Of a stretch of DNA of 64,000 nt, positions 6,965-57,827 are shown piece by piece. A program made the translations under genes and the position numbers. Source of the stretch: Escherichia coli (GTDB lineage Bacteria > Pseudomonadota > Gammaproteobacteria > Enterobacterales > Enterobacteriaceae). The notes beneath the pieces are model-generated. The model saw only the letters and a list, made by a program, of their open reading frames with translations. It did no database searches and was not told the origin of the DNA. The stretch's first letter is position 1, and each line of letters starts with the position of its first letter. The stretch is taken from the NCBI RefSeq assembly GCF_013122565.1, contig NZ_CP053258.1; one strand, 5' to 3'.

Positions 6965-7003
6965 TAAGATCATCTCATACTCTTACGATCTGCAATATTA
7001 TCC

Positions 7004-8428
7004 TTAATGTTTAACCATGACGTGGCGGACGACGGTGTAATCCTCCAGCCCATAAAGTGACATATCCTTGCCGTAACCAGAAAGTTTCTGCCCACCGTGC
7101 GGCATTTCACTTACCAGCATGAAATGGGTATTGACCCAGGTACAACCATATTGCAGCCGTGCGCTGACGCGATGCGCCCTGCCCACATCTTTCGTCCATA
7201 CCGAAGATGCAAGTCCGTACTGGCTGTCATTCGCCCAGTTTACCACCTGTTCTTCGTTGTCGAAGAGCGTAACACTCACTACTGGACCAAATACCTCTTT
7301 TTGCACGATGGCATCGTCCTGTAATGCGCCAGCCAGCAGCGTCGGCGCATAGTAATAGCCATTACCCTTGCGCTTTTCACCGCCAGTGATCACTTTGATG
7401 TGCCCTGTCGCTTTCGCCTCTTCTACCGCTTTGCTAACGCGTTCGAGATGCGCCAGCGAGCTTAAAGGTCCAAGCTCCGTAGACTCGTCATCCGGCGCAC
7501 CAGATTTTAACGTTGCCACTGCAGCACCGAGTTTTTCCACCAGCGTATCGTAAATGCCTTTTTGCGCGTAGATCCGACAAGCCGCAGTACAATCCTGTCC
7601 GGCATTGTAATAGCCAAATGTACGTACACCTTCGACCACTGCTTCAATATCCGCATCATCAAAAACAATCACTGGCGCTTTGCCACCAAGTTCCATATGA
7701 GTTCGCTTAATGGACGGCGCGGTATGGCTGATGATGTGCTCGCCGGTGGCGATAGAGCCCGTCAGCGACGCCATCCGCACTTTGGGATGACCGGTCAGCG
7801 GATCGCCCACCGTTTTGCCTCTGCCAAACAGTACGTTAATCACGCCTGCCGGGAAGATATCTTTCGCCAGCTCTGCCAACTTCAACGCGGTCAGCGGGGT
7901 AATTTCTGATGGTTTAAGCACTACGCAGTTCCCTGCCGCCAGCGCCGGAGCCAATTTCCACGCTGCCATCATCAGCGGATAATTCCACGGTGCGATCGAA
8001 GCCACGACCCCCAATGGATCGCGACGGATCATCGAAGTATGACCTTCAAGATATTCACCTGCCGCCAGACCATTCAGACAGCGCGCCGCACCAGCGAAAA
8101 AGCGAAAAACATCGACAATCGCCGGGATTTCATCATTGAATGCACTATGCAGCGGTTTGCCACAATTACGGGATTCCAGTTCGGCAAAAACCTGACCATT
8201 TTCTTCGATAACATCCGCCAGTTTCAGCAGGCATTCCGCACGCGCTTTCGGCGTGGTTTGCCCCCATTCGGCAAATGCTGCATCTGCCGCGCGCACAGCA
8301 GCATCCACCTGCTCTACGGATGCCTCGGCAATCTCCAGTAAAACGTCCCCCGTTGCCGGATTATAAACAGGCTGTTTTTCCCCTTCGCCGCTAACCAGTT
8401 CTCCGTTAATCAGTAACTTATGTTGCAT
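7004..8428 (-). CDS. patD: Gamma-aminobutyraldehyde dehydrogenase (NAD-dependent aldehyde dehydrogenase)
   Basis: 474-aa ORF with aldehyde dehydrogenase motifs (ELGGKAP, catalytic-Cys region [11 protein letters not shown]); last gene of the ydcSTUV-patD cluster. Confidence 0.9.
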
Positions 8429-8449
8429 AGCATATTCCTGTATCAGTGG

Positions 8450-9244
8450 TTATTGACCATTGTCGCCTTCGCGGGTTAGCCACCAGGCCCCCAGGATCGG
8501 CAAGGTTGTTACCAACATAACCAGCAGTGCCACCACGTTGGTTACCGGTACATCACGCGGTCGCCCAAGCTGATTGAGCAACCACAACGGTAACGTTCGT
8601 TCATGACCTGCCGTAAAGGTCGTAACGATGATTTCATCGAACGACAAGGCAAACGCCAGCATTCCTCCTGCCAGTAGCGCCGAACTGAGATTCGGCAACA
8701 CTACGTAGCGGAAGGTTTGCCAGCCATTGGCCCCAAGATCCATTGACGCCTCAACCAGATTCCACGAGGTGCGGCGAAAACGGGCGATGACATTGTTAAA
8801 CACCACCACTACGCAAAAAGTCGCATGACCGACCACGATGGTGAAAAATCCCGGCTCCAGATTGATGGTTTTAAAAGCGGTTAATAGCGCCAGACCAGTG
8901 ACAATGCCCGGCAGCGCAATGGGCAGCAGCAGTAACAGCGAAATGGCGTTTTTGCCGAAAAAGTCTCGTCGCCACAGCGCGGCAGCTGCCAGCGTCCCTA
9001 ACACCAGCGCGATTAATGTCGCCAGCGCTGCCACTTTAAGTGACAGTGTCACTGCATCAAGAATATCACTACGCTGTGCTGCCACGCTAAACCAGCGCAG
9101 CGTCAGGCCTTGCGGTGGAAAACTAAACGCCGCATCTTCAGTGTTAAACGCATAGGCGGCGATAATCAGGATGGGAAAATGTAGGAAAACCACGCCGCCC
9201 CAGGCCGCCAGTTTGAGGAAAAACGGTGCGCGTTCAGAGTGCAT
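8450..9244 (-). CDS. ydcV: ABC transporter permease YdcV (polyamine-type, PotC-like)
   Basis: 264-aa polytopic membrane ORF with the ABC permease EAA-like loop ([20 protein letters not shown]). Confidence 0.85.
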
Positions 9245-10175
9245 CGAACGCTCCCAGACGTTTCACGAACGCCAGGTACAGTGCGATGAGAATAATCGGC
9301 ACCAGGGTGAATGCCGCCGCCATCGGCATATTGCCAATCGCCCCCTGCTGGGAATAAACCATATTGCCGATAAAATATCCTGGAGGACCAACCAGCTGCG
9401 GGACGATAAAATCGCCCAGTGTGAGTGAGAAGGTAAAGATAGAGCCAGCGGCAATACCCGGGATTGCCAGCGGCAGCACCACATAGCGAAAGGTTTGTCG
9501 TGGACGTGCGCCGAGATCAGCTGACGCCTGCAACAATGACGGAGGCAAACGCTCAAGCGCCGCCTGCACGGGCAGGATCATGAACGGCAGCCAGATATAG
9601 AGAAACACCAGAAAGCGCCCCAGCCCGGAAGTTGACAGAGTATTGCCGCCCACCGCAGGTAATGTAAGGAACGCAGTCAGCAGTGGTTCCAGCCCAAGAT
9701 GTTGTAAAAACCACTGAGCCACGCCATCTTTTGCCAGCAATAACGTCCAGGCATAGGCTTTCACAATGTAGCTCGCCCACATCGGCAACATTACCGCAAT
9801 ATAAAAAAACGCTTTCATTTTCCCGCTGGTATAGCGCGCCATATACCACGCCATTGGAAAAGCCAGAATACCGCTGGCGATAGTGACTGCCACAGCCATA
9901 GTCAGCGTGCGGAGAATGATGTCGTAATTCGCCGGATTAAACAGCGCACGGATATTCTCCAGCGTCAGCTCCGGCGTTACCGACATGGTGAAATCGTCAA
10001 AAGTATAAAATCCCTGCCATAACAGTGTCAGCAGCGAGCCGAAATAGACAATGCCAAACCACATTAGCGGGCCAAGCAGCAGTAAAAACAGCCCCAGCCC
10101 CGGATTACGCCAGAAGAAACCGGACACCTTACCCAGACCTGGACGTGAAGGTGATTGCAATACGTTCATCGCCAT
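9234..10175 (-). CDS. ydcU: ABC transporter permease YdcU (PotB-like)
   Basis: 313-aa membrane ORF with EAA loop ([20 protein letters not shown]); overlaps the ydcV start by 11 nt. Confidence 0.85.
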
Positions 10176-11189
10176 TCACCTCTCCTCAACCAGCGGCACC
10201 ATCACATCACGCGACCAGGAAACCATCACCTGTTGTCCGGGCGTGAGCGTGGAAGGCAGTTCTTCGCCTGTCATATTGGCCTGACTCACCAGCAGTTTTT
10301 CACCGCCGTTCAGTCTCAGTTCAAAACGGGTCGCCGCGCCCTGATACTGCACCGCCTGGATCGTGCCATTAGCCTGCACTTCGCCGGGGATGTTGAAGCG
10401 GATATGTTCCGGTCGCAGGGCGAAGCTTCCCGTCATGCCACAAAGTTTGTCTGCCATCAGTGCATCAAAAACATTCGATGTCCCGACGAACCCGGCAACA
10501 AACGGCGTGCGCGGGCGCATATAGAGATCGCGCGGGGAATCGACCTGTTCAATGCGTCCATTATTGAAAACCGCCACACGATCGGACATCGATAACGCTT
10601 CGCCCTGATCGTGGGTAACGAAGATAAAAGTGATACCGAGAGACTGTTGCAGCTTTTTCAGTTCCAGCTGCATCTGCTCACGCAATTTGAGATCCAGTGC
10701 GCCGAGCGGTTCATCCAACAGCAATACGCGCGGTTCATTCACCAATGCTCTGGCGATAGCAACCCGCTGGCGCTGACCACCAGAAAGTTGTGACGGTTTG
10801 CGTTGCTGAACAAAACCCAGCGCCACTTTCTCCAGCGCCTCTTGCGCCATTGCGTGCCGCTGCTTTTTATTCACGCCTTTGACCATCAGCCCGTAGCCTA
10901 CGTTGTCAAGAATCGACATATGCGGAAAAAGCGCGTAGTCCTGAAAGACGGTATTCACGTCCCGCTCCCACGGTGGCAGATTGCTGGCGGGTTTACCAAA
11001 GATAGAGATAGCCCCGCTGGAAAGCTGTTCGAAGCCAGCAATCAGGCGTAGGCAGGTGGTTTTGCCGGAGCCGGACGGCCCCAGCATAGAGAAGAACTCA
11101 CCATCTTTTATCGCAATACTGACGCCATCTACTGCGCGCACGTCACCGTACAACCGCGAGACGTTGTCAAACTCCACTGCGTACGTCAT
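10176..11189 (-). CDS. ydcT: ABC transporter ATP-binding protein YdcT (PotA-like)
   Basis: 337-aa ORF with Walker A GPSGSGKTT, signature LSGGQRQR and Walker B LLLDEP. Confidence 0.9.
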   Translation of the reverse strand: MTYAVEFDNVSRLYGDVRAVDGVSIAIKDGEFFSMLGPSGSGKTTCLRLIAGFEQLSSGAISIFGKPASNLPPWERDVNTVFQDYALFPHMSILDNVGYGLMVKGVNKKQRHAMAQEALEKVALGFVQQRKPSQLSGGQRQRVAIARALVNEPRVLLLDEPLGALDLKLREQMQLELKKLQQSLGITFIFVTHDQGEALSMSDRVAVFNNGRIEQVDSPRDLYMRPRTPFVAGFVGTSNVFDALMADKLCGMTGSFALRPEHIRFNIPGEVQANGTIQAVQYQGAATRFELRLNGGEKLLVSQANMTGEELPSTLTPGQQVMVSWSRDVMVPLVEER

Positions 11190-11206
11190 AAAGCACCCCA
11201 GCGAAG

Positions 11207-12352
11207 TTAGCGACCGCCCATAATGGCAATGTAATCCTGCGTCCAGCGACTGTAGGGAACAAACTTGCCCCCTTCTGCTATAGGCGTTTTCCAGAAGGCG
11301 ATTTTATCGAAATAGTTAAAACCGTTTGTTTCACACCCTTTCTCGCCTAATAACGGACTGGCTTTACATCCTTCCGGCACTACCGGTAACGAGCCAAACC
11401 AGGCCGCCACATCGCCCTGCACTTTTGGCGTTAATGACCAGTTCATCCATTTGTAGGCGCAAACCGGATGTTTCGCTTCGCTATGCAGCATGGTGGTATC
11501 AGCCCAACCGGTAACGCCCTCCTTCGGGAAAACGGTAGCAACAGGCTGGCCTTCGGCTTTCAGGGCGTTGGCCTGATAGGGCCATGCACTGGAAGCAACC
11601 ACACCCTCGTTTTTGAAATCGCTCATTTGCACGGTAGTGTCATGCCAGTAGCGATGGATCAAACTATGTTGATCGCGCAGCACTTTCAGCACCGACTGGT
11701 ACTGTTCTTCGGTGAGTTGATACGGATCGCTGATGCCCAACTGCGGCTGAGTGGCTTTAACGAACAACGCAGCGTCCGCAATGTAGATAGGGCCATCATA
11801 AGCCTGGACGCGGCCTTTATTGCTCTTGCCGTCCGGCAGATTCTGCTCAACAAAAACCACTTGCCAGCTATCCGGCGGCGTCGGGAAGGTTTTAGTGTTG
11901 TACATCAGCAGGTTCGGCCCCCATTGGTAAGGTGTGCCGTAAACTTTGCCGCCAACGTTAAACCAGTCGCCTTTAACCACGCGCGGATCGAGCGTTTTCC
12001 AGTTGGGAATCAAGGCGGTATTAATCGGCTGCACGCGTTTGCCCATAATCAAACGCAGCGAGGCATCGCCAGATGCCGTAACCAGATCGTAACCCCCTTT
12101 GGCCATCAGACTGACCATTTCATCGGAAGTCGCCGCAGTTTTCACATTCACCGCGCAACCTGTTTCTTTTTCAAATTGCGTCACCCAGTCGTATTGTTTA
12201 TCGGTTTGTCCGCGTTCGATGTATCCCGGCCAGGCGATAATATCCAGTCGCCCTTCCGGTTTATCTAAATTGGTAGGCGGTTCGGCGGCGTGAGCGGTCA
12301 TTATTGTCATGCTGAGCGCACACAGGCTGCTGCGGGCAAATGTCTTGCTCAT
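11207..12352 (-). CDS. ydcS: Periplasmic substrate-binding protein YdcS (polyamine-binding family)
   Basis: 381-aa ORF with an N-terminal signal peptide (MSKTFARSSLCALSMTIMTAHAA); first gene of the transporter cluster. Confidence 0.85.
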   Translation of the reverse strand: MSKTFARSSLCALSMTIMTAHAAEPPTNLDKPEGRLDIIAWPGYIERGQTDKQYDWVTQFEKETGCAVNVKTAATSDEMVSLMAKGGYDLVTASGDASLRLIMGKRVQPINTALIPNWKTLDPRVVKGDWFNVGGKVYGTPYQWGPNLLMYNTKTFPTPPDSWQVVFVEQNLPDGKSNKGRVQAYDGPIYIADAALFVKATQPQLGISDPYQLTEEQYQSVLKVLRDQHSLIHRYWHDTTVQMSDFKNEGVVASSAWPYQANALKAEGQPVATVFPKEGVTGWADTTMLHSEAKHPVCAYKWMNWSLTPKVQGDVAAWFGSLPVVPEGCKASPLLGEKGCETNGFNYFDKIAFWKTPIAEGGKFVPYSRWTQDYIAIMGGR

Positions 12353-12596
12353 AAGGTCTTACTCCTGTCGTAATTAATTGTTCAGCCGCCGTGCCGTAAA
12401 AATATCTCCTTGTTTAACCATAGACGGCGGCTTGCAGGCACACCTTCGCCCCTGAGAAAATTTAATCAGGTTGTGAGCTACCGCGCATTATGCCGTCTGT
12501 AAGGTTATCTTCTGGAGTATAGTCAAGGAGTTAGGAAATATGACTGCTATTCGAAATTCATATTACCCAATCTAAGAGGAATTAAATTAAACGCTA

Positions 12597-47168: not shown

Positions 47169-48029
47169 TTATTCTCGCGAAATACCATCCAACGTAGACA
47201 ACACTTCCTCAGAAAGATGCAATTTTTCAGCAGCCATATTCTCCCGTAAATGCGCAACAGAAGACGTCCCTGGGATCAGCAAAATATTCGGTGAACGTTG
47301 TAACAGCCACGCCAGCGCCACCTGCATTGGTGTTGCACCCAGGCTCGCAGCAACATCGGAAAGCGTGGAGGATTGCAGCGGCGTAAAGCCCCCGAGCGGG
47401 AAGAACGGCACGTAGGCAATGCCATCGCGGGCCAAAGCATCAATCATTGCATCATCCGCACGATGAGCAATGTTGTATTCGTTTTGCACACAGACGATTT
47501 CGGTAATCTTACGCGCCTCTGCAACCTGCGTCGGTGTAACGTTGCTCAGACCAATATGTTTCACCAGGCCTTGTTGTTGCATCTCTGCCAGCACTGTCAG
47601 GCTGGCTTCAATCGAGCCTTCCGCTGGGCCATGACCATCCCCCATCATAATGCGCAAGTTAACCACATCCAGTACGTCCAGCCCGAGATTACGTAGATTA
47701 TCGTGCACCGCTTTTTGCAGCTCTGCCGGAGAAAAGGCAGGCAACCAGGATGCGTCCTCTCCACGCCGCGCACCAATTTTAGTGACAATTGTCAGGTCGT
47801 CAGAGTAAGGATAAAGCGCTTCGCGGATAATCTGATTGGTGACGTGCGGACCATAAAAGTCGCTGGTATCAATGTGATTGACGCCCAATGCCAGCGCCTC
47901 ACGCAGCACGGTAATAGCGACGTGGCGATCTCTTGGGGGGCCAAAAACCCCAGGACCTGCCAGTTGCATCGCGCCATAACCGAGACGGTTAACGGATTTT
48001 GTACCGAGAGTAAATGTATTGCTGCTCAT
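47169..48029 (-). CDS. pdxI: Aldo/keto reductase YdbC (pyridoxine 4-dehydrogenase PdxI)
   Basis: 286-aa ORF with the aldo-keto reductase fold (LGYGAMQLAG near the N-terminus, IPGTSSVAHLREN near the C-terminus). Confidence 0.85.
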   Translation of the reverse strand: MSSNTFTLGTKSVNRLGYGAMQLAGPGVFGPPRDRHVAITVLREALALGVNHIDTSDFYGPHVTNQIIREALYPYSDDLTIVTKIGARRGEDASWLPAFSPAELQKAVHDNLRNLGLDVLDVVNLRIMMGDGHGPAEGSIEASLTVLAEMQQQGLVKHIGLSNVTPTQVAEARKITEIVCVQNEYNIAHRADDAMIDALARDGIAYVPFFPLGGFTPLQSSTLSDVAASLGATPMQVALAWLLQRSPNILLIPGTSSVAHLRENMAAEKLHLSEEVLSTLDGISRE

Positions 48030-48237: not shown

Positions 48238-51200
48238 TTAGAACGTTTTCTTGAAGTTCAGCATCACGCCTTTGTCGCTGATGCCGTCCTCTTTCCAGTT
48301 GTACGCATCCAGGTTCAGTGAGCTTTCTTTGCTGCTGTACTTCACGCCGACGCTTGCCAGGCTGTTGATGCCGCCACCCTTCTGACCGTCATCGACGTTA
48401 AAGTGCTGACTGCCTGCGCCTGCCAGGCTTGCCGTGCGCTGGCTCTTCGCGTAGCTCAGATTCGGCCCGCCTTCCAGCGTGGCGCTAGCGCTCCAGCCGT
48501 CTTTACCTGCGTAATCCAGTTTCAACCCGACGATGCTGTCCACCGCCGTTTCGCTGCCACTGTTCATATTCAGGTTAAAGTCTCCGGCATTGCGCTCCTG
48601 ATAGCCACCTTCCAGTGTGTGACGCAGTTTAACACCCGCATATGGCGTAACCTTCAGTCCTTCGCTCGGTTCGAAAGTCTTCGCCCCTTCGCTGCGGAAC
48701 TCCAGGTACTGCTGCTTCACGTCGGTATCAGCCGTTTTGTTTGTGTTGCTAAATGCAATCGAACGGCTGCTGTCAAGGTTGTGAACGTCATAACGCAATG
48801 CGTTATTCCAGTTCATGCCGTTGTCGAAGGACATCTGATGTTTCAGGCCAAAGAACTGGCTGTAGCCGCCGGTTACGCCGTTGTCGCCCGCTTTCTGCGC
48901 ACCATCGCCATCCAGACGCGCAATACCGTATTCCAGGCTCATGCTCTGGCTTTCGCTCAGGTCGATGGTTTTACGCAATGCCAGCATGTCGTACTCGGTA
49001 TTATTACCTAACTCGGCACGCGGATCGCCTTTCGCCACCACGTTGAACGCCAGACCATTGCCCACTTTCGGCGCGGCATCCGCCAGCATACTAAAGCGGT
49101 TGCTTAACACGCGCGCTTCACGGAACACCGTGGTCGCCAGGCTACCGCTGACCTGTTTCAGGGCGCTGTTCAGTTCGGCGGTGGTGCCAACGTTCAGGCT
49201 GGTATACAGCTCGTTGTTGGTGTAACCCGCATCCAGTGCCTTCGCGACGTCATTTACCGAAGCATCGGTTGCGACATCGGTGTAGGCATTTTTGCTCATG
49301 GTAACGTCAACGTTACCGTTGGCATCGGTGCTGCCTTTGGCGTTCCATACGACCGTAGAGGAAACGATGTTGTCCACACCGCTGATGTTTTCGCCTTTGA
49401 ATACATCGTTAACGACAACGGTGGTATCCGCTGTTCCTGCACTAAACCCGGCATTAACACTCACGTTGTCGCCAATCACCAGGTTATTCGCGCTGAGCGT
49501 ACCGGAACTCCCGTCGCTATTGGTACCGATGGTATAGTTGCTCAGCAGTTGCGGCGCATTTGAATCAGCAGGCGGGGTTGGAACATCACCTTGTGACGGC
49601 GTAGTTGATGCGTCTGGTACGGTGATATCCACAGTACCGTTGTGGTCGTTTTGTGTACCCGTTGTTCCAGGAGCATAAATATCGCATCCGGTATCACACA
49701 GCAGGTTAATTTCACCGTTGTTAATGATGGCTTTCGTTTGCCCACCAAACGCCCAGGAATTATCGGCATAGACATTAATCACACCCGTTTGCGTGTTATT
49801 AATTGTTGTTTCCCGACCATTGCCTTTAATACCAATTAAACCTTCGCCATTGGTTCCATCCTGTTGCCCCTGCTCAGTACCCACATTAATGGTGCCACTG
49901 TTCACCAACTGAACAACATAACTGGTTGTGCCGCCACTGATGCCCACCGCATTATCGCCCTGAACATTAATAACGCCAGCGTTAGCAAAGTTATAACCTC
50001 GTCCTAAATCAACCAACGGAGCCGCAGGGTTAATACCATTGATTACCCCTGTTTCTGTGTTCCAGATCCATTTACCTTTACTGTTCGAGCCAGTACTTTC
50101 GGTTTTGATCGCGCTGTAGCCATTTGTAGCCGTAATGGTTCCACGGTTAACCTGAGATACAGAATCCCCGGTTCTGGTTACATGAATAATCGCGTTTTCA
50201 CCGCCCGTTACCGCATTACCACTATTCGTCAGGGTCGCACCCGCTTCGTTGAAGAACAGGAAACTCCCGTTGATGAGTGATTGCCCATCTTCGGTCACCG
50301 TCATTTCACCGGTATTCACTACGTTCTGTTGATAGCTGTTGCCGGTAATTGAACCGCTGAACTCACCTTCGTTAAAGAAGGAAACCGCACCATTCAACGT
50401 AAGGAGATCTGTTGTCATGCTCCCGGTTTCACGGTTATAGATCGTGGTTTTGCTGTTAATACTGTCAACATCCAGGGTCCCACTATTCTCCAACCCTTGA
50501 GTGACACTCAGTTCGCCATTGATGGTCAGACTGGCATCAGGTTGGTTATATAACCAGCCGTTTGCATCAACATTGCCATTAAGCGTTTCATCTCCGTAGT
50601 TTGCCAGGTTATTAACAACGACAAAACCGTCGGTAGTTGTGGTTTTGCTGATGCTCTCCCCGCTACCAGACAACTCGCTAAGAACATCTTTGTCATCCGG
50701 CGTCACCCCCATATGGGAATCACTTTCATCCATTGGATTACCGAAAAGAGTAATTTTTCCGTAGTTGAGAATGGTACCGGTGCTATCTTTATAAAACGCC
50801 TGACCAATATCAGTATTAATATTAATCACACCATCCTGGTCATTAATGGCCAGACCACCTTGAATTGCCCCCATCGCGAACAACTGGTTATCTTGCTGCT
50901 TCGTCACACCCTCATCGGCGGTGAGATTGATCGTTCCCTGGTTGACAACGGTCCCGCCGCTCATCGCCAGCATACCAAAACCTTCGTTATTAACATTGAT
51001 GGTTCCGGTATTTAACCCACTGGCATCGCCATTTCCGATATCGGTTGACCCTACAACAACGCCACCGGACATAAGATAAGGATGGGGTGGTTGCCAGTAG
51101 GATTTACTAATGATATTGCCATCTTCATCAAGTTCGGGAACAAAACCATCGACATTGATTTCCCCGGCATTTGTCGCCGTGCCTTTAGATGCTGCAGCAG

Positions 51201-54200
51201 CATAGTTTCCCGCGCCTTGCAAATTAATGGTGGCGTCAGATTCATTCACTGTGATGCCGTAATCACTGGCCCACAGCCCGTAGTTGACACCGAAATACCA
51301 TTTCAGGGGGGATTCAGACATCCCGCCTGCGTATGCAGGTGTCGTTACAGAGATCAGATTAATAACCCCACCCGACGCATTCGTAACCTGAGAATTCTGG
51401 CCACGAGCACGCATTGTCCCCCCCCTGGAGAATTCCTCACCGCTAGGTTTGACATTAATAATTCCACTATTAGTGATATGTGCACCATTGTTAGCCGTCA
51501 TTAAATCCTGGCTATCCATTGTGTTAATCACACCTTTGTTTTCAACGCTGGACTGACTGCCAATAGCAGAAATAAGCGCACGTTCAAAGAAGAAAAAGTC
51601 GGTTTCCCTGGCTTTACTGGATATATCCGTTACAGCGTTTTCATCAAATATAACTTTTCCACCGTCCGCCACCGAGACCAACGTAAAGGCACCCAATTCC
51701 TGACGGGTATCCATTGTCGAATGACCACTAATGTTAACGGTATTGTCACCAATAACCGATACGCCATCTATAACATGTGCGGCGCTATCACCACTAATAT
51801 TAATACCGCCATCAATATTAACGGTATTCTTCTCGCCAGAAACAATTATGCCACTCACTAAATTTTCCTGGTGTAGCAGCTCCCCTTGTACGGTGATATC
51901 AACATGGCCACTAATATCTACAGTGTTATTTTTACCACTAATCGTTCCACCTGTTAATGCTGTGATTTGTGCATCAGGGTTATCGCCGAGGATGGAATTA
52001 ACATTGATGCTTCCGTCAACGCTAATATGGCTGTCATTACCCGTCAGACTGAAACCTGTAGCACCCGGCGCATTGCCCTCGCTGTCTGGTTGCTGGAATA
52101 CGTTAATATCGCCGCTTAATTGAACCTGTTCACGGTCACCCGCAATGGATACCCCAGTTCCGTACCGTGAAACATCAATTTCGCCCACGTTACCGAAAAC
52201 TTCATCATCACCATCAATCAGAATCCCCACAGAACCGGAATCCGTGACAACAATTTTGCCTTTATTACTTAACTGCGAGTTATTACCGGCAATATCAATA
52301 CCCGTTGCCCCTCCGCTGACGTAGAGGTCACCTTCCTGGCTAATTGTTGCATTGTGACCGGCAACTTTTGTCCCTACTGCATTCGCACCGTCAACCGTCA
52401 TATCCCCGGCGATATTCATCTCATTGCCATCGCCAGTGATGGTTATACCTGTGGCATTTTCACCCAAAATATTAAGATCATAGGTTGCCAGGGTTATACT
52501 ATTGTTGTCGCCGATAATCTCCATGCCAGTCGTATCGTCTTTAACCAGCATTGAGCCAGCAAGAGAAATACTGCTGCTGTCCCCGGTGATTTTTACACCA
52601 GTACCGCTATTTGTTGTGGTGATGTCTCCCACATTGACAAAGGTAGTATTATCACCATTGATTAACACGCCGTAGGGGTTTCCGTCACTGTCCGCCTGAC
52701 CTACATTGATATCACCAATGTTCATAAAGGTTGTTTGATCGCCATCCAGCAATACACCGATGGAAGTATCATCCACCACAGTAACATTACCCTTATTACT
52801 GACGAGAGTACCTTTACCCTCGGCGTCAATACCGTGTGCGCCACCGCTGACGTATAAATCACCCTGTTGCCTTACAATGGCATCTTCGCCGATAATTTTT
52901 GATCCCGTTGAATTTGCACCATCGACGGTCATGTCGCCTTTGATTTCAATGCGGGCATCATCCCCTGTAATCACACTCCCCGTGCCACCATTCGTGATTT
53001 CGACATCACCAACGGTGTTCAACGTAGTACGATCGCCATTGACAATAACGGCCGTACCACCATCGACATCTGTCTCACCATTATTAGTAATGGTGATATC
53101 GTCACCGGTAAGAATACCTACCACCGAACCTTCACCAATCGCGGTAGTTTGACCGTCGTTGTTCAGGGTGATGTCGTTACCGTCAACGTTTATCACAACG
53201 CCGCCATTCAGCGCGATGTTGCCGCCATGGTCGGTAATAGTGGCATCGTTAATATGGAAATGTTCGCCAGTTGTACCGTCTGCGGTGGTGAGTGACTCTA
53301 TGATTATTTCGATTTTTCCCGCTTCGTCATAGCGCCAGGTGGAGGTTCCGCTCGGATTGACGCCATTGAACGAAGCAGTGTTAGCCGCCTCGTCGACTAA
53401 CCAATCCTTTACGATTGTGGTAGTGCCGCCAGGTCCGGTAAGCGTATAGCTGCCATCGTCATTTTTGGTGTAGGTAAAGGTGGTATCACGTAATTTTAGG
53501 GTCTTCGCGTCCTGATCCCAGGTGACATCGTTTTTATAGACCACTGGATCGTGTTTAACTGGCGTGTCATCGCCACCGTCATCCGGGGTGTCATCGCCGC
53601 CATCATCTGGCGGGACGGGGGTGTCGCCGCCATCATCCGGCGGGACTGGTGTGTCGCCGCCATCATCCGGCGGGACTGGTGTATCACCGCCATCATCCGG
53701 CGGGACTGGTGTGTCGCCGCCATCATCCGGCGGGACTGGTGTGTCACCGCCATCATCCGGCGGGACAGGTGTATCACTGCCATCGTCTGGCGGGACTGGC
53801 GTGTCGCCGCCATCATCCGGCGGGATGGGTGTATCACCGCCATCATCCGGCGGGACGGGTGTATCACCGCCATCATCCGGCGGGACTGGCGTGTCGCCGC
53901 CATCATCCGGCGGGACGGGTGTATCACCACCATCATCCGGCGGGACTGGCGTGTCGCCGCCATCATCCGGCACCGGAGACGAATCGTCATGATGATTATT
54001 ATTATCGTGGAGTGCATATACTGCGACACCTGTGACTGCCGCTGCCAGCCCCACTGCAGCCCAGGGTAATAACTCATTATCTTCAACTGATTTACACTCT
54101 GCCGGCAGCTTTTCTAGCTGTTCTTTACTTAGTGATTTAATATTGGCCGGGCAGCTAATCTTGCTGGATTTACGAGATTCATCCGATGTTTCCGCTATCG

Positions 54201-54273
54201 ACGTATCTGCCGCCCATGTCTGGCTGCTTAACGCCATTGCAACACAGACACTGAGCAATTTTTTCCTTTGCAT
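48238..54273 (-). CDS. ydbA: YdbA, giant type Va autotransporter (AIDA-like), intact 2011-aa reading frame
   Basis: Single 6036-nt ORF: signal peptide, Pro/Asp/Gly decapeptide repeat stalk, very long Gly/Thr/Asn-rich beta-helical passenger with pervasive internal repeats, and a C-terminal beta-barrel translocator ending MLNFKKTF. Confidence 0.9.
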   Translation of the reverse strand: MQRKKLLSVCVAMALSSQTWAADTSIAETSDESRKSSKISCPANIKSLSKEQLEKLPAECKSVEDNELLPWAAVGLAAAVTGVAVYALHDNNNHHDDSSPVPDDGGDTPVPPDDGGDTPVPPDDGGDTPVPPDDGGDTPVPPDDGGDTPIPPDDGGDTPVPPDDGSDTPVPPDDGGDTPVPPDDGGDTPVPPDDGGDTPVPPDDGGDTPVPPDDGGDTPVPPDDGGDDTPDDGGDDTPVKHDPVVYKNDVTWDQDAKTLKLRDTTFTYTKNDDGSYTLTGPGGTTTIVKDWLVDEAANTASFNGVNPSGTSTWRYDEAGKIEIIIESLTTADGTTGEHFHINDATITDHGGNIALNGGVVINVDGNDITLNNDGQTTAIGEGSVVGILTGDDITITNNGETDVDGGTAVIVNGDRTTLNTVGDVEITNGGTGSVITGDDARIEIKGDMTVDGANSTGSKIIGEDAIVRQQGDLYVSGGAHGIDAEGKGTLVSNKGNVTVVDDTSIGVLLDGDQTTFMNIGDINVGQADSDGNPYGVLINGDNTTFVNVGDITTTNSGTGVKITGDSSSISLAGSMLVKDDTTGMEIIGDNNSITLATYDLNILGENATGITITGDGNEMNIAGDMTVDGANAVGTKVAGHNATISQEGDLYVSGGATGIDIAGNNSQLSNKGKIVVTDSGSVGILIDGDDEVFGNVGEIDVSRYGTGVSIAGDREQVQLSGDINVFQQPDSEGNAPGATGFSLTGNDSHISVDGSINVNSILGDNPDAQITALTGGTISGKNNTVDISGHVDITVQGELLHQENLVSGIIVSGEKNTVNIDGGINISGDSAAHVIDGVSVIGDNTVNISGHSTMDTRQELGAFTLVSVADGGKVIFDENAVTDISSKARETDFFFFERALISAIGSQSSVENKGVINTMDSQDLMTANNGAHITNSGIINVKPSGEEFSRGGTMRARGQNSQVTNASGGVINLISVTTPAYAGGMSESPLKWYFGVNYGLWASDYGITVNESDATINLQGAGNYAAAASKGTATNAGEINVDGFVPELDEDGNIISKSYWQPPHPYLMSGGVVVGSTDIGNGDASGLNTGTINVNNEGFGMLAMSGGTVVNQGTINLTADEGVTKQQDNQLFAMGAIQGGLAINDQDGVININTDIGQAFYKDSTGTILNYGKITLFGNPMDESDSHMGVTPDDKDVLSELSGSGESISKTTTTDGFVVVNNLANYGDETLNGNVDANGWLYNQPDASLTINGELSVTQGLENSGTLDVDSINSKTTIYNRETGSMTTDLLTLNGAVSFFNEGEFSGSITGNSYQQNVVNTGEMTVTEDGQSLINGSFLFFNEAGATLTNSGNAVTGGENAIIHVTRTGDSVSQVNRGTITATNGYSAIKTESTGSNSKGKWIWNTETGVINGINPAAPLVDLGRGYNFANAGVINVQGDNAVGISGGTTSYVVQLVNSGTINVGTEQGQQDGTNGEGLIGIKGNGRETTINNTQTGVINVYADNSWAFGGQTKAIINNGEINLLCDTGCDIYAPGTTGTQNDHNGTVDITVPDASTTPSQGDVPTPPADSNAPQLLSNYTIGTNSDGSSGTLSANNLVIGDNVSVNAGFSAGTADTTVVVNDVFKGENISGVDNIVSSTVVWNAKGSTDANGNVDVTMSKNAYTDVATDASVNDVAKALDAGYTNNELYTSLNVGTTAELNSALKQVSGSLATTVFREARVLSNRFSMLADAAPKVGNGLAFNVVAKGDPRAELGNNTEYDMLALRKTIDLSESQSMSLEYGIARLDGDGAQKAGDNGVTGGYSQFFGLKHQMSFDNGMNWNNALRYDVHNLDSSRSIAFSNTNKTADTDVKQQYLEFRSEGAKTFEPSEGLKVTPYAGVKLRHTLEGGYQERNAGDFNLNMNSGSETAVDSIVGLKLDYAGKDGWSASATLEGGPNLSYAKSQRTASLAGAGSQHFNVDDGQKGGGINSLASVGVKYSSKESSLNLDAYNWKEDGISDKGVMLNFKKTF
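53565..53975 (-). repeat. About 13 to 14 near-identical 30-bp tandem repeats inside ydbA, encoding PVPPDDGGDT units
   Basis: Directly visible periodicity: (ggtgtcgccgccatcatccggcgggactgg)n with only a few substitutions; in-frame units (PVPPDDGGDT, PIPPDDGGDT, PVPPDDGSDT) at about residues 100 to 240. Confidence 0.9.
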
Positions 54274-54674
54274 ATGAAATTCCTCATAAATAGATGCTTA
54301 CGCAGCCCAGATAAACTGCACAGGGTTAAATAGTTAAAAATATTCGAAATCTGGATATTGTTTTTAACAGAATAAATATATTGATTTAGTGAATGTATTT
54401 ATTCATTAAGTCAATATATCTTTTCTTTAATTTATATTTTTAACGCATTTATTTCAACTTAAAATATGGCGTAATTGAGATTAAATCCGATAACACCGAT
54501 GAATTAAATAATGCAATTAATTCATGAAATAAATAAATTATCATGTGAATGAAGCATTCATCATCGGCATCTATATGAAATTAAATGAAAAATAATTCTC
54601 TATAGCATTGCAGTTAATATTGAATATTTCAGGAGGTACAACCAGGCAGATTTTTCTCGACGAATACCGACTTA

Positions 54675-55001
54675 TTATTTTTGCAACCACATTCCGTTTA
54701 TCCCGCGAATGTATTCTCCCGGCTTAGCTTTTGCTACCAGTTTCTGCCCCGCCAATTTTTCCACTTCCGCAACCGGCAGATTATTTTTCATGGCGAGTTG
54801 TTGATAGCTCTTATTACGCGATTCATTAATCCTTTTGACTAACATCTGTGTTTCGGTATCCGCCTTTAATGCAACCAGATAACCATTATACGTTTCGCCA
54901 ACACGCCCCTGAGTTCGAGCGTCATCCAGCGTCAGAGCCATCGCACTGGTGCTAAATAAGGCATTAATGACAAAACACAGTATTAAACTTCTCTTCATCA
55001 T
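54675..55001 (-). CDS. ydbL: Periplasmic protein YdbL (DUF1318)
   Basis: ORF 54675..55079 trimmed to the MMKRSLILCFVINALFSTSAMA start (108 aa) with a signal peptide; third gene of ydbH-ynbE-ydbL. Confidence 0.8.
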   Translation of the reverse strand: MMKRSLILCFVINALFSTSAMALTLDDARTQGRVGETYNGYLVALKADTETQMLVKRINESRNKSYQQLAMKNNLPVAEVEKLAGQKLVAKAKPGEYIRGINGMWLQK

Positions 55002-55005
55002 CGCC

Positions 55006-55191
55006 TCAGAAAAGATCGCTACGAGTTTCAAGCAGCTCTTCGACATCTTTGTCTGCCTTGATGATGATCTCATGCTCAATTTTAACGTTCATATTGATAG
55101 TGATCGGTTCCTTAGGTGCAGCGACTTCAATGCGAGGCGTACAGCCAACCAGCATAAAAGATGACGTCAACGCAGCCAGTAAAATTTTCAT
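55006..55191 (-). CDS. ynbE: Small lipoprotein YnbE (61 aa)
   Basis: MKILLAALTSSFMLVGCTPRIEV... with a lipobox (LVGC); its start overlaps the ydbH stop by 4 nt. Confidence 0.8.
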   Translation of the reverse strand: MKILLAALTSSFMLVGCTPRIEVAAPKEPITINMNVKIEHEIIIKADKDVEELLETRSDLF

Positions 55192-57827
55192 TGTTTTTCC
55201 TCACACTCTTTTCCTTGCGGACAGTCATTTCCCGGCAGACGTGCGTTCTGCTCCAACCATGCCTGGAGATTATCGCCAAAGCGTAAACTGCGCCACAGCG
55301 TAAAAATATTCTCTTCATGATGGTAATTAAGGTTTACCGTACCGCTTTTACCATCAACGCGACTGGTACCTGTAATGTTGGCCTGCATGGTTAATAAACC
55401 GAGATTATCTAAATTAATATTTGTCGATGAACGGCTAATTTCCATATAGCGCAACCAGTTAATTGCTGAACCCGCAGTCATATTGTCTTTCACCACCGCA
55501 TCTGCGGTGTCTTTATCCAGCCGCAAGGTCATTGGCCCGCTATTTGCCAGCCAACCATCTTTCACAATCCATTTTTCGTTGTTTAGCCATAACGGCAATG
55601 CACCACTAAATGCCCCGGACATGGCGAATTGTTTCGGATTGATGGCGCTAACCAGTTCGCTGGATGAGAGATTATTCAGCCGCAACAGCGCCGGGTCATG
55701 TTGCGGCATACGTAATTGTTTCATCAGCACGTTACCGCCTAACACATCGACGCTAACATCAGTCAACAGCAATGGTTCTTCTTCTGTCCACGGATAGCGC
55801 CCTTGCAAATCAGCCGTAATATTTTTCGCTGTCACCAGATTAATCACTTCGGCAATTCGCAACGTAACGGGGCCGCGAGTCCCCAGATGCCAGGCTCCAT
55901 CGGCAAAACGGAAAGGCAGGACAAAATCGACACCGTTAACCTGATTATCTGGCATCCAGGCACTACCGCCTTTCAACACGCCGTGCCCTCCCGCGCGGAA
56001 TCCTTGTTCAGGCGCAGCAGAAAATGCAACCTGAGCATACAGTTCACCATCGCGTAAGTTCATCTTCCAGTCGGGTGGCACCAGCGGCTGGAATACAGTC
56101 AGTGATTGTTTAGGCCACCAGGCGTTACCGCGCAGACGAATACCGTCCCAGCGACCATTTACCCGAACCGGGCCAATCTCACCAGCATGTAAATCGCCTT
56201 TAAAGAGGAAATAGGTAGGATCGCGCCCATCGACACTAAATTTTAAGGTTGATGGCGGTAACAGACTGCCGCCAGTGAACAGCGTTTGCCCGGCGTCCAG
56301 TGACAGCGCGCCGCTGAAGGAGGGATGCTGTGCGTCACGTACCCAGACGACGGGCTTGTCGAGAATTAGTCGCGGCTTTTCTACCGTCATCGTACCGTAT
56401 TGTAACTGGTCGAAACCGGTGGAGAGATCGGTCAGCGTAATCGTGCTGTCATGCCACTCACCTTTTCCTGCGACATCCCAGGTGGCATTCATCGGTGTAA
56501 AACTGCCTTTTCCCCAGTAGCGCCACTGCCAGCGGCCAGCGTCAGGGAGAAAATCATTCGCCAGCCCATCCATATGCAGCACGAAATCGCCCAGTTCATT
56601 TTCATGCGCCTGCAAGATGGCCTGCAAACGTCCGTCAACACCACGTTGGGTGACTTTTACACCCGCTAAAGGCCAGCGGATTTCATCGATGTCCAGCGAA
56701 TCGATGACTCTTCCCTTCGAACGTAATAACGCGCCTGGCTCAAAGGCTAACGTTGGGTCAGTCAGACTTCCACTTAGCTGCGCGGGTAAGCGGGCATATA
56801 AAATGAGGTCCGCCTGTTTCGCTTCACCGGTCAGCTGCAGAGGCAGCTGACTGTTATCCATGCTTAATTTTCCTGGGCCAAAATTAAGCACCGCGTTGCC
56901 CTTACCCGCTTGCCCCTGGGTCAGCACACTCAGTCGTCCGCTGACCACTGCGTTCTCGATACCTGCCTGCCAGTTGTCGACTTTGACACCCAGTCGTCCA
57001 CTCAAAGGAAAACCTACATACGGCCAGCTCCAGCGACCATCGCTTACCGTCAATTGTTGACGAGTAATTTGCCACGGCAAATCGAGCAACGGATCGCCGT
57101 TATCCCGTGCCAGCACAATCAATTGCCCGCTATTTTCCTGCCAGTCCAGCTCGGCATCCACCAGTGACGGTTCCTGCGGCAAGTTTAACGTCGCAGTAGC
57201 ATGCCCACTTACAGGAAGTCCATCCGGCACTAGCGGCATAGTAAATTCCCCCACCAGTTTTACCGGCGGCTGATTTTCAAACGCGGCGACATCCAGTTCG
57301 CTGACTGTAAGTTGTTGCCCTTTCAACTGGCCTTGAAATTTAACTTTTTCGCCCTGATAACGCAGTTGCTGGATATCAGAGGTTAATGCGAGAGAGAGTT
57401 TTCCCTGCCATTCCTGCCAAGGAGAAAAAATCAGTTTATCGATATTGATCCAGGTGTTAGGCAGCATGGACTGCCACTGCGCGAGGGTTTTTGGAGCGGC
57501 TGGCGATTGCTCCGTCTGCGGCAATTTCGCCAGACAAGCAGAATCAAGTTCTACCGTGCCGACGTTCAATAACCAGCGGCTGGGATGTGAAAGGCTGGCG
57601 TTGGTGATATGCGCAAGCTGACAATCTCCCACCAGATAACGGAGATCGGGAATGATTAAACCTTTACGCGTAATGCGTGGGCTTTCATCTAATGCAATAC
57701 GTGTCCCGAGCGGTAGCCAGATGCCCGCCAGCGTGGGAACCCACAGCCCGAGCGTCATCAGCAGCGTCAACGGCACAAGAATAATCAGTAATAACAGCGC
57801 GAGAACGGCTTTATATTTACCCAGCAT
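55188..57827 (-). CDS. ydbH: AsmA-like large envelope protein YdbH
   Basis: 879-aa ORF with an N-terminal membrane anchor (MLGKYKAVLALLLLIILVPLTLLMTLGLWV) followed by a long predicted periplasmic domain. Confidence 0.85.
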   Translation of the reverse strand: MLGKYKAVLALLLLIILVPLTLLMTLGLWVPTLAGIWLPLGTRIALDESPRITRKGLIIPDLRYLVGDCQLAHITNASLSHPSRWLLNVGTVELDSACLAKLPQTEQSPAAPKTLAQWQSMLPNTWINIDKLIFSPWQEWQGKLSLALTSDIQQLRYQGEKVKFQGQLKGQQLTVSELDVAAFENQPPVKLVGEFTMPLVPDGLPVSGHATATLNLPQEPSLVDAELDWQENSGQLIVLARDNGDPLLDLPWQITRQQLTVSDGRWSWPYVGFPLSGRLGVKVDNWQAGIENAVVSGRLSVLTQGQAGKGNAVLNFGPGKLSMDNSQLPLQLTGEAKQADLILYARLPAQLSGSLTDPTLAFEPGALLRSKGRVIDSLDIDEIRWPLAGVKVTQRGVDGRLQAILQAHENELGDFVLHMDGLANDFLPDAGRWQWRYWGKGSFTPMNATWDVAGKGEWHDSTITLTDLSTGFDQLQYGTMTVEKPRLILDKPVVWVRDAQHPSFSGALSLDAGQTLFTGGSLLPPSTLKFSVDGRDPTYFLFKGDLHAGEIGPVRVNGRWDGIRLRGNAWWPKQSLTVFQPLVPPDWKMNLRDGELYAQVAFSAAPEQGFRAGGHGVLKGGSAWMPDNQVNGVDFVLPFRFADGAWHLGTRGPVTLRIAEVINLVTAKNITADLQGRYPWTEEEPLLLTDVSVDVLGGNVLMKQLRMPQHDPALLRLNNLSSSELVSAINPKQFAMSGAFSGALPLWLNNEKWIVKDGWLANSGPMTLRLDKDTADAVVKDNMTAGSAINWLRYMEISRSSTNINLDNLGLLTMQANITGTSRVDGKSGTVNLNYHHEENIFTLWRSLRFGDNLQAWLEQNARLPGNDCPQGKECEEKQ

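What the first reader, a model, noticed from the sequence alone, without database searches (positions are those of the whole stretch)
53565..53975. Thirteen to fourteen near-perfect 30-bp tandem repeats encoding a PVPPDDGGDT stalk near the YdbA N-terminus
Repeats this similar at the nucleotide level are prone to slipped-strand or recombinational copy-number change, so the length of this acidic proline-rich spacer is probably variable between strains and could be phase- or length-variable. It follows a hydrophobic segment (LLPWAAVGLAAAVTGVAVYAL) downstream of the signal peptide, which is unusual for a classical autotransporter N-terminus. It is also a likely assembly hazard in short-read genomes.
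Basis: seen in the sequence. Interest (0 to 1): 0.5.

Follow-up and report, generated by a model that had tools for sequence, protein, structure and literature searches.

The report
Length-variable acidic proline linker in YdbA
A real 30-base tandem repeat in an intact E. coli surface-adhesin gene (ydbA/BigA family) encodes a disordered, very acidic proline-rich linker; its copy number runs from 2 to 16 between strains, always in frame, which is an ordinary kind of length polymorphism, not an on/off switch.

Summary
Window 53560-53976 (minus strand) carries 13 tandem units (one of 27 nt, twelve of 30 nt) plus a degenerate tail. They encode (PVPPDDGGDT)n at residues 100-238 of an intact 2011-aa YdbA/BigA-family type Va autotransporter. 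The units are near-perfect as peptide but only 88% identical as DNA; most differences are synonymous (pN/pS 0.03).

The main prediction is confirmed. Fourteen complete E. coli genomes read directly hold 2 to 16 units, and the O157:H7/O55:H7 clone alone shows 2, 4, 5, 7 and 9. E. albertii proteins differ in length by multiples of their own 9-aa unit. Every variant is in frame, so the array is length-variable, not phase-variable. Draft contigs do end inside it.

The hydrophobic segment after the signal peptide is real and belongs to a conserved N-terminal module: signal peptide, C-x18-C loop, hydrophobic segment, His/Asn/Asp patch, acidic linker lacking Lys/Arg in the window, BigA_N domain. Only 65 protein clusters among 1.84 billion share it, all named ones from Enterobacterales.

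Because the linker sits at the passenger's N-terminus, I read it as a leash for that module and not a stalk from the outer membrane. The module's function is unknown.

The parts
48238..54273 (-). Intact ydbA / BigA-family type Va autotransporter gene, 2011 aa
   Evidence: The ORF has no internal stop. NCBIfam NF033178 auto_BigA scores 2053 bits, below the curated cutoff of 3400. Pfam finds BigA_N, BigA_beta and the Autotransporter beta-domain. A GAGGAA ribosome-binding site lies 7 nt upstream of the ATG. The gene sits between ydbC/pdxI and ydbL-ynbE-ydbH, as in other E. coli.
54211..54273 (-). Sec-type signal peptide, aa 1-21 (MQRKK-LLSVCVAMALSS-QTWA|AD)
   Evidence: Read from the sequence: a positive n-region, a 12-residue h-region, and small residues at -3 and -1. 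It is conserved in homologues. No signal-peptide predictor was available.
54094..54153 (-). Conserved Cys loop, C41-x18-C60 (CPANIKSLSKEQLEKLPAEC)
   Evidence: C41, P42 and C60 are invariant in both alignments. It is the only part of the first 120 residues with moderate AF2 confidence (pLDDT about 72, short helices). A disulfide is inferred, not shown.
54010..54072 (-). Conserved hydrophobic segment, aa 68-88 (LLPWAAVGLAAAVTGVAVYAL)
   Evidence: Kyte-Doolittle 19-mer mean is 1.77. The additive Hessa sum is +3.0 kcal/mol, which is marginal for membrane insertion. The 30 residues on its C-terminal side have 0-1 K/R and 3-9 D/E in all 20 homologues examined. W71, G75 and A78 are invariant or nearly so, at i, i+4, i+7 spacing. 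AF2 pLDDT is below 50 and no helix is predicted.
53977..54009 (-). His/Asn/Asp-rich patch, aa 89-99 (HDNNNHHDDSS)
   Evidence: H95 is invariant in the 10-sequence alignment. Homologues carry similar H/N/D/G/S-rich stretches at this position.
53560..53976 (-). The finding: 13 tandem units (1 x 27 nt, 12 x 30 nt) plus a degenerate tail, encoding (PVPPDDGGDT)n, aa 100-238
   Evidence: Composition is 44 Asp, 40 Pro, 27 Gly, 14 Thr and 12 Val in 139 residues; net charge is -44, and there is no K/R between residues 88 and 240. AF2 pLDDT is below 50 for the equivalent linker of a natural 2-unit allele. Copy number is 2-16 in other E. coli.
53305..53544 (-). BigA_N beta-barrel domain (Pfam PF25784), aa 244-323
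   Evidence: Pfam i-Evalue 9.8e-27. In the AF2 model of the 2-unit allele L006, pLDDT is above 90 from its residue ~131 (equivalent to window aa ~241) onwards, and the domain runs directly into beta-helix coils.
49285..49539 (-). BigA beta-sandwich domain (Pfam PF25783), aa 1579-1663
   Evidence: Pfam i-Evalue 1.3e-24.
48328..48929 (-). Autotransporter beta-domain (Pfam PF03797), aa 1783-1982: the outer-membrane barrel
   Evidence: Pfam i-Evalue 1.6e-18.

Best explanation
The array is an in-frame variable-number tandem repeat inside an intact YdbA/BigA-family autotransporter adhesin gene.

It encodes an intrinsically disordered, extended linker of about 29% Pro, 32% Asp and 19% Gly, with net charge -44 and no Lys or Arg. 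The linker joins a small conserved N-terminal module (a Cys-x18-Cys loop, a 21-residue hydrophobic segment and a His/Asn/Asp patch) to the BigA_N domain that heads the beta-helical passenger.

Copy number changes by replication slippage or unequal recombination between units, which share exact matches of up to 56 nt. Units are 27 or 30 nt, so every change keeps the reading frame. The result is a different leash length, at most about 3 nm of contour per unit, and never an on/off switch.

Selection keeps the decapeptide nearly unchanged while synonymous sites drift.

Shown here: the array, its coding frame, its polymorphism within and between lineages, peptide-level constraint, predicted disorder, and conservation of the module. 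Inferred: the mutational mechanism, the extended conformation, that the acidic flank lacking Lys/Arg lets the hydrophobic segment pass the Sec channel instead of acting as a stop-transfer, and that the linker acts as a leash for the N-terminal module at the distal end of the passenger.
For: Array and frame.

Polymorphism:
- Alleles with the same N-terminus hold 13 (window), 12, 11, 8, 7 and 2 units, with residues 1-97 identical.
- The O157:H7/O55:H7 clone holds 9, 7, 5, 4, 4 and 2 units.
- Three further intact genes hold 16, 15 and 11 units, and their CDS lengths differ by exactly 30 and 120 nt.
- E. albertii proteins in one 90% cluster are 1913, 1904, 1895, 1877, 1832, 1823 and 1796 aa, differing by multiples of their 9-aa unit.

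Single-event relationships: L005 and L003 differ by the loss of one unit plus substitutions in two others, and L006 retains only the first and last unit types of that array.

Peptide constraint: 22 of 26 distinct 30-nt unit types encode PVPPDDGGDT; pS is 0.452 and pN 0.014.

Disorder: pLDDT is below 50 across the linker, while BigA_N and the beta-helix are above 90.

Family pattern: every long homologue has a Pro/Asp/Gly-rich linker at this position, built from lineage-specific repeats. Examples are VTPPDDGGN x16, TPDDGGN x15, PIPDPTPD, PVDPVD, DNGGDNGD, and the non-repetitive K-12 type.

Autotransporter architecture.
Against: - No experiment bears on conformation, surface exposure or function.
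- AF2 low confidence is only indirect evidence of disorder.
- The strict conservation of the decapeptide (pN/pS 0.03) is more than a pure spacer would need. It hints at a specific interaction or metal binding that this account does not explain.
- The leash idea requires the hydrophobic segment to be exported, which is untested. By Kyte-Doolittle it looks like a transmembrane helix.
- Some alleles carry Arg in a few units (PVPPDDGGDR), so the absence of K/R is not absolute.
- Much of the within-clone variation was seen in O157:H7, where the gene is truncated to about 1000 aa and may be under relaxed selection.
Confidence: 0.7

Rival explanations
1. The units are structural calcium- or metal-binding repeats. 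Each DDGGD turn would coordinate a cation, and the array would form a stiff rod whose length is set by the unit count, so it would not be a disordered leash.
For: The PDDGG core is invariant or nearly so across E. coli, E. albertii, Yokenella and Salmonella sequences. pN/pS is 0.03 among units. The conserved His/Asp-rich patch next to the array would suit metal binding.
Against: AF2 gives no confident structure. Pfam matches no known calcium-binding repeat in the first 423 aa. Other family members fill this position with linkers that lack the motif, such as PIPDPTPD, PVDPVD and the non-repetitive K-12 type, so the position does not need DDGGD. Metal binding cannot be tested with these tools.
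Confidence: 0.12
2. A TonB-like arrangement: the hydrophobic segment is a true inner-membrane anchor, and the proline-rich array spans the periplasm to hold the N-terminus of the passenger at the inner membrane.
For: The hydrophobic segment reaches Kyte-Doolittle 1.5-2.2 in all homologues. It has a conserved W-x3-G-x2-A face typical of packed membrane helices. Proline-rich periplasm-spanning linkers are known from TonB (background knowledge).
Against: A cleavable signal peptide precedes the segment, so it would enter the membrane N-out/C-in and leave about 1900 residues, including the outer-membrane barrel, in the cytoplasm. The charge distribution opposes that orientation: K/R lie on the N-side, and 0-1 K/R with 3-9 D/E lie on the C-side. 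Intact genes tolerate 2 to 16 units, which is not how a ruler for a fixed distance would behave. The additive Hessa sum is +0.4 to +3.7 kcal/mol, which is marginal.
Confidence: 0.05
3. The repeat is a neutral, runaway expansion in a decaying gene and has no function.
For: ydbA is a pseudogene in K-12 (PMC4951805), is truncated in O157:H7, carries an internal stop in strain wlxctx60, and is deleted in PT62. The array still varies in the truncated O157 alleles.
Against: The window's gene and at least seven others are intact at about 1940-2050 aa. Strong purifying selection acts on the encoded peptide. An acidic proline-rich linker at this position is conserved across several genera.
Confidence: 0.08
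4. The repeat is a phase-variable contingency locus that switches YdbA on and off by slipped-strand mispairing.
For: Only the general association of tandem repeats with phase variation in surface proteins.
Against: Units are 27 or 30 nt. All 15 arrays read are in frame. Length classes in the BLAST tables differ by multiples of 3. The array lies inside the coding region, not the promoter.
Confidence: 0.02

Closest known systems
Salmonella BigA and E. coli K-12 YdbA (Pfam BigA_N PF25784, BigA_beta PF25783; NCBIfam NF033178)
   Same: The overall architecture matches: signal peptide, Cys loop, hydrophobic segment, Pro/Asp-rich linker, BigA_N, beta-helix, BigA_beta and a C-terminal autotransporter barrel. 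The chromosomal position next to ydbC/pdxI is the same as in other E. coli.
   Different: The NF033178 score (2053 bits) is below the curated BigA cutoff of 3400. K-12-type alleles have a short non-repetitive linker (P0029, P0036), and K-12 ydbA is a pseudogene. The central passenger of the window's allele is only 24-60% identical to alleles that share its N- and C-termini.
Polymorphic proline-rich repeat regions of Bordetella pertactin (region 1 GGxxP, region 2 PQP); background knowledge, not tested here
   Same: Both are in-frame short peptide repeats inside a classical autotransporter passenger, with copy number differing between strains.
   Different: Pertactin's repeats are loops on the folded beta-helix. 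Here the array precedes the folded passenger, is far more acidic, and tethers a separate N-terminal module. No immune-selection data exist for YdbA.
TonB-type proline-rich periplasmic spacer; background knowledge
   Same: Both have a hydrophobic segment followed by an extended proline-rich charged region.
   Different: TonB has an uncleaved N-in signal anchor and alternating acidic and basic Pro repeats. YdbA has a cleavable signal peptide upstream, a purely acidic linker, and a length varying 2-16 units. The topology is incompatible with a TonB-like role.
Lipidated autotransporters such as NalP; background knowledge, plus the barrel grouping in PMC3419190
   Same: Celik et al. place the BigA barrel in the same group as NalP-type proteins. 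NalP carries a hydrophobic N-terminal anchor (a lipid) on its passenger, a possible functional analogue of the hydrophobic segment here.
   Different: YdbA has no usable lipobox. Its Cys10 lies only 9 residues from the start, and several homologues lack it. Here the anchor would be a peptide segment on a long leash. This is an analogy only and was not tested.
Extended signal peptide region (ESPR) of large autotransporters
   Same: Both have two hydrophobic stretches near the N-terminus of a very large autotransporter.
   Different: Pfam finds no ESPR match. The two stretches are 46 residues apart, with a conserved Cys pair between them. Homologue P0086 carries a classical ESPR signal peptide upstream of the whole module, so the second hydrophobic stretch belongs to the mature protein.

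Membership tests
Type Va (classical) autotransporter | C-terminal 12-stranded outer-membrane beta-domain (Pfam PF03797) | tested here: met
   PF03797 matches aa 1783-1982 with i-Evalue 1.6e-18.
Type Va (classical) autotransporter | N-terminal Sec signal peptide | tested here: inconclusive
   The sequence shows MQRKK / LLSVCVAMALSS / QTWA|AD, with the pattern conserved in homologues. No dedicated predictor such as SignalP could be run.
Type Va (classical) autotransporter | Beta-helical passenger domain | tested here: met
   In the AF2 model of the 2-unit allele L006, regular beta-helix coils run from its residue ~200 (equivalent to window aa ~310) onwards, with pLDDT above 90. RefSeq names homologues 'pectate lyase-fold' or 'beta strand repeat-containing'. 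Only the first 300 residues were modelled.
BigA/YdbA autotransporter family | BigA_N (PF25784) and BigA_beta (PF25783) domains | tested here: met
   i-Evalues are 9.8e-27 and 1.3e-24.
BigA/YdbA autotransporter family | NCBIfam NF033178 'autotransporter adhesin BigA' above its curated cutoff | tested here: not met
   The score is 2053 bits against a cutoff of 3400. The protein is a homologue, not BigA in the strict sense of that model.
In-frame VNTR (length polymorphism) in a surface protein | Head-to-tail units whose length is a multiple of 3, inside a CDS | tested here: met
   Units are 27 and 30 nt within the CDS at 48238-54273.
In-frame VNTR (length polymorphism) in a surface protein | Copy number differs among strains, including closely related ones | tested here: met
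   Fourteen E. coli genomes hold 2-16 units, and O157:H7/O55:H7 genomes hold 2, 4, 5, 7 and 9. E. albertii protein lengths differ by multiples of 9 aa.
Phase-variable contingency locus | A repeat whose copy-number change shifts the reading frame or alters promoter spacing | tested here: not met
   Unit length is divisible by 3. All arrays read are in frame and lie within the coding region.
ESPR-type extended signal peptide | Conserved N-terminal extension motif recognised by the Pfam ESPR model, contiguous with the signal peptide | tested here: not met
   The Pfam scan of aa 1-423 lists no ESPR hit. The second hydrophobic stretch is 46 residues downstream of the predicted cleavage site.
TonB-like periplasm-spanning anchor plus proline spacer | Uncleaved N-in/C-out signal anchor as the first hydrophobic element | tested here: not met
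   A separate cleavable-type signal peptide precedes the hydrophobic segment, and the charge distribution opposes the N-out/C-in orientation that would result. Actual topology is not testable with these tools.

The most novel reading that the evidence does not exclude
The repeat may be the adjustable leash of an undescribed device at the distal tip of BigA/YdbA-family autotransporters. The device would be a disulfide-bonded loop plus a Gly/Ala-rich hydrophobic helix with a conserved W-x3-G-x2-A face. The acidic flank lacking Lys/Arg would allow this helix to be exported instead of stopping in the inner membrane. Once outside, the helix would insert into a membrane (the bacterium's own outer membrane, as a peptide counterpart of the NalP lipid anchor, or a host membrane) or pair with the same helix on a neighbouring molecule. 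Repeat copy number (2-16 units, up to roughly 6-50 nm of contour) would then set how far the tip module can reach.
Probability: 0.15. Interest if true: 0.7.

Novelty: new member of a known kind. Interest (0 to 1): 0.35.

Why it matters
In-frame repeat polymorphism in surface adhesins is common, so the array alone is not surprising. Three things are still useful.

- It documents a clean, easily typed length polymorphism that varies even inside O157:H7. It lies in a gene that breaks short-read assemblies and is therefore under-annotated: many database entries are 'partial', 'hypothetical' or 'proline-rich domain-containing'.
- The decapeptide is under strong purifying selection while the DNA is synonymously scrambled, so the peptide itself matters, not only its length.
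- It draws attention to a conserved, uncharacterised N-terminal module with a hydrophobic segment that standard autotransporter export models do not explain. The module is confined to a small family in Enterobacterales. If the segment is exported and functional, it would be a new feature of type Va biogenesis or adhesion.

Tried and rejected
- Phase variation: rejected because of unit length and in-frame variants.
- Misassembly artefact: rejected because the array recurs in many complete genomes.
- Lipoprotein signal: the LSVC/LSAC motif at residues 7-10 was considered. The Cys is only 9 residues from the start and is missing in several homologues, so this was rejected.
- Second hydrophobic stretch as the true signal-peptide core (ESPR-like): rejected. 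There is no Pfam ESPR hit, its N-flank is acidic, a conserved Cys pair lies upstream, and P0086 has a real ESPR signal before the module.
- Fold search of the AF2 model against the PDB: no match with E <= 0.001.
- Sequence searches against PDB chains with the N-terminal profile and with the full protein: no hits.
- Literature searches (YdbA + autotransporter, BigA, proline-rich repeat number, N-terminal transmembrane helix, ydbA + tandem repeat, the peptide string PPDDGGD): nothing on this repeat or module.
- O157:H7 MLVA markers: Noller loci TR1-TR6 were checked, and their listed repeat sequences are different. Other schemes, such as Keys and Lindstedt, were not checked.
- Closest strain by ldhA (PT62, 100% identical): it has lost ydbA through an IS1-associated deletion, so it could not serve as a comparison.
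- The first protein-database search returned only short or partial proteins, not full-length homologues. The representative-library search supplied those instead.
Full report
**What is there**

The window's minus strand carries an uninterrupted 2011-codon ORF at 48238-54273. It has a GAGGAA ribosome-binding site 7 nt before the ATG.

Pfam finds BigA_N (aa 244-323, 9.8e-27), BigA_beta (aa 1579-1663, 1.3e-24) and the Autotransporter beta-domain (aa 1783-1982, 1.6e-18). NCBIfam's 'autotransporter adhesin BigA' model matches at 2053 bits, below its curated cutoff of 3400.

The neighbours are ynbA-D, ydbD and ydbC/pdxI on one side, and ydbL-ynbE-ydbH, ldhA, hslJ, ydbJ and pfo/nifJ on the other. The ldhA gene is 99-100% identical to most E. 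coli genomes. This is therefore an intact E. coli ydbA, the gene that is an IS-interrupted pseudogene in K-12 (PMC4951805).

**The observation**

The repeat finder reports a 30-nt period at 53594-53971: 12.6 copies, 88% matches, no indels, score 574. Self-identity is 0.82 at lag 30 and about 0.25 at lags 28-32, apart from the in-frame lags 27 and 33 at about 0.42.

In frame there are 13 units, one of 27 nt and twelve of 30 nt (aa 100-228, window 53590-53976). A degenerate tail, TPDDGGDDTP, runs to 53560.

'Near-perfect' applies to the peptide. The DNA units average 88% identity, and 189 of 233 pairwise differences are at third codon positions.

The long ORFs on the plus strand across the array arise because a stop-free repeat stays open in other frames.

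**Is copy number variable?**

Yes. A megablast of the array with 500-nt flanks found 114 of 5426 complete E. coli genomes carrying this allele type. Their spans fall into five length classes.

Reading the sequences directly gave these counts:

| Group | Units | Notes |
|---|---|---|
| Window and alleles with the same N-terminus | 13, 12, 11, 8, 7, 2 | residues 1-97 identical in all six |
| O157:H7 / O55:H7 clone | 9, 7, 5, 4, 4, 2 | often changing in 57-nt (9+10 aa) double units |
| Three further intact genes | 16, 15, 11 | CDS lengths differ by exactly 30 and 120 nt |

A more sensitive blastn search found 648 genomes with related alleles and many more span classes.

In E. albertii the unit is a 9-aa VTPPDDGGN. 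Proteins in one 90%-identity cluster are 1913, 1904, 1895, 1877, 1832, 1823 and 1796 aa long, differing by multiples of 9.

Coding each unit by its exact DNA sequence shows simple relationships between arrays. L005 and L003 differ by one unit plus substitutions in two others. L006 keeps only the first and last unit types of that array. This is what slippage or unequal recombination would produce; the mechanism itself is inferred.

All arrays are in frame, so the locus is length-variable and not phase-variable.

Variation is not uniformly fast. In one search, 47 of 53 full-length matches share one span and one bit score despite coming from varied hosts.

**Assembly hazard**

The protein database holds many entries named 'BigA, partial' that end or begin inside the array. 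Examples are P0012, P0014, P0016 and P0023, with 46, 64, 120 and 40 member sequences. For P0016 the contig was retrieved and does end inside the array.

**Constraint on the peptide**

Among 26 distinct 30-nt unit types from 12 genomes, 22 encode exactly PVPPDDGGDT. pS is 0.452 and pN is 0.014, a ratio of 0.03.

The PDDGG core is invariant or nearly so across E. coli alleles and the E. albertii, Yokenella and Salmonella sequences. So the peptide is selected, not only the length.

More distant family members fill the same position with different Pro/Asp/Gly-rich repeats: TPDDGGN x15, PIPDPTPD, PVDPVD, DNGGDNGD, or the non-repetitive K-12 type. What is shared family-wide is composition and position.

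**The linker as a polypeptide**

Residues 100-238 contain 44 Asp, 40 Pro, 27 Gly, 14 Thr and 12 Val. Net charge is -44, and there is no Lys or Arg from residue 88 to 240.

I modelled a natural 2-unit allele (L006) with AlphaFold2, using a 21-sequence alignment. In L006 numbering, pLDDT is below 50 for residues 1-37 and 64-116, about 72 for the Cys loop, and above 90 for BigA_N and the beta-helix that follows. This is consistent with a disordered, extended linker, but it is not direct proof.

**The N-terminal module**

An exhaustive search of 1.84 billion representative proteins found only 65 clusters sharing this N-terminus. All named ones come from Enterobacterales: E. coli, E. albertii, Citrobacter, Rahnella, Enterobacter, Yokenella and Salmonella.

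Most of the long members read share the same order of parts; two depart from it downstream of the linker (P0072 and P0082 run straight into passenger repeats without a recognisable BigA_N-like stretch):
1. signal peptide
2. C-P-x(16-19)-C loop
3. acidic stretch
4. a 19-21-residue Gly/Ala/Val-rich hydrophobic segment
5. His/Asn/Asp/Gly patch
6. acidic proline-rich linker
7. BigA_N

C41, P42, C60 and G75 are invariant; W71 and A78 are nearly so.

One member (P0086) has a classical ESPR signal peptide upstream of the whole module. The second hydrophobic stretch therefore belongs to the mature protein and is not an extended signal peptide, and Pfam finds no ESPR here.

By Kyte-Doolittle the segment looks transmembrane (1.5-2.2). 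By an additive Hessa sum it is marginal (+0.4 to +3.7 kcal/mol). In all 20 homologues examined, the 30 residues on its C-terminal side carry 0-1 K/R and 3-9 D/E.

A stop-transfer in the N-out/C-in orientation would strand the barrel in the cytoplasm and would go against the positive-inside rule. I therefore infer that the segment is exported and that the acidic linker helps this. That is inference only.

**Position argues against 'stalk'**

The membrane barrel is C-terminal, so residues 100-238 lie at the far end of the passenger. The array cannot raise the passenger from the cell surface. It links the about 65-residue N-terminal module to the head of the beta-helix.

**Comparison with known systems**

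- The gene belongs to the BigA/YdbA family by its domains. It falls below the strict BigA model cutoff.
- The polymorphism is of the same kind as in-frame repeat variation in other autotransporters, such as the pertactin regions (background knowledge).
- It differs from TonB-type spacers in topology, charge and tolerance of length.
- It is not a contingency locus.
- I found no paper on this repeat or this module in the searchable library.
- It is not one of Noller's O157 typing loci TR1-TR6.
- No solved structure is related by sequence, and the fold search gave nothing significant.

**Verdict**

The feature is real and correctly located. The suggestion of phase variation and the word 'stalk' are not.

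As a phenomenon it is an ordinary in-frame VNTR in a surface adhesin, so interest is modest. The more intriguing part is the conserved hydrophobic N-terminal module that the repeat tethers; its function is unknown and was not resolved here.

Noticed in passing
window 53977-54009 (aa 89-99): A His/Asn/Asp-rich patch (HDNNNHHDDSS) lies directly after the hydrophobic segment. His95 is invariant in the 10-sequence alignment, and homologues carry similar H/N/D/G/S stretches there. It could be a metal-binding site.
   Followed up: partly
window 54010-54072 (aa 68-88): The conserved residues in the hydrophobic segment (W71, G75, A78) fall at i, i+4, i+7, which is one face of a helix and resembles small-xxx-small helix-packing motifs. 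AF2 nonetheless predicts no helix there, with pLDDT below 50.
   Followed up: partly
window ~49470-53070 (aa ~400-1600 of the ydbA product): The gene is mosaic. Compared with alleles whose residues 1-97, 201-400 and 1800-2011 are 98-100% identical (differing before 400 only in repeat count and one substitution), the central passenger is only 24-60% identical and carries several 5-17-aa indels. This suggests recombination or diversifying selection on the exposed passenger.
   Followed up: partly
window 54274-54675 (upstream of ydbA): The upstream intergenic region is very AT-rich and holds an imperfect 21-nt tandem repeat (54370-54430, 2.9 copies, 75% matches). Only one weak sigma-70-like site was found, fewer than in shuffled sequence. 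This is typical of silenced adhesin genes, but it was not examined further.
   Followed up: no
window 54675-57827 and 47169-48029: In this strain ydbA sits directly beside ydbL-ynbE-ydbH, an AsmA/TamB-like envelope operon. The same is true of the other strains fetched that carry PVPPDDGGDT-type alleles. From background knowledge of the K-12 map, the fea/tynA/paa island separates these genes in K-12 and is absent here (PMC4951805).
   Followed up: partly
L001 (E. coli PT62, NZ_CP090448.1) 4709-8852: PT62 is the strain with a 100% identical ldhA. It has an IS1 element next to remnants of ynbA-C and ydbD, and it lacks ydbA, ydbC and ydbL entirely, so the locus is prone to IS-mediated loss.
   Followed up: no
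L007-L012 (O157:H7 / O55:H7 genomes): In this clone the ydbA reading frame is annotated as only about 960-1030 aa, under names such as 'hypothetical', 'proline-rich domain-containing' or 'beta strand repeat-containing'. That is a truncated gene without its barrel, yet the repeat still varies from 2 to 9 units.
   Followed up: partly
L005 (E. coli wlxctx60, NZ_AP045833.1) 6203-12388: This 12-unit allele is annotated as a pseudogene with an internal stop. It is another example of frequent inactivation of this gene.
   Followed up: no
window 53496-54086, both strands: Several ORFs of 128-196 aa in other frames and on the plus strand overlap the array. They exist only because the stop-free repeat keeps other frames open, and they should not be called as genes.
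   Followed up: yes
L014, L015 (E. coli SCU-316, L26): Some units in these long arrays encode PVPPDDGGDR, with Arg in place of Thr. The absence of basic residues from the linker is therefore a strong tendency and not absolute.
   Followed up: no
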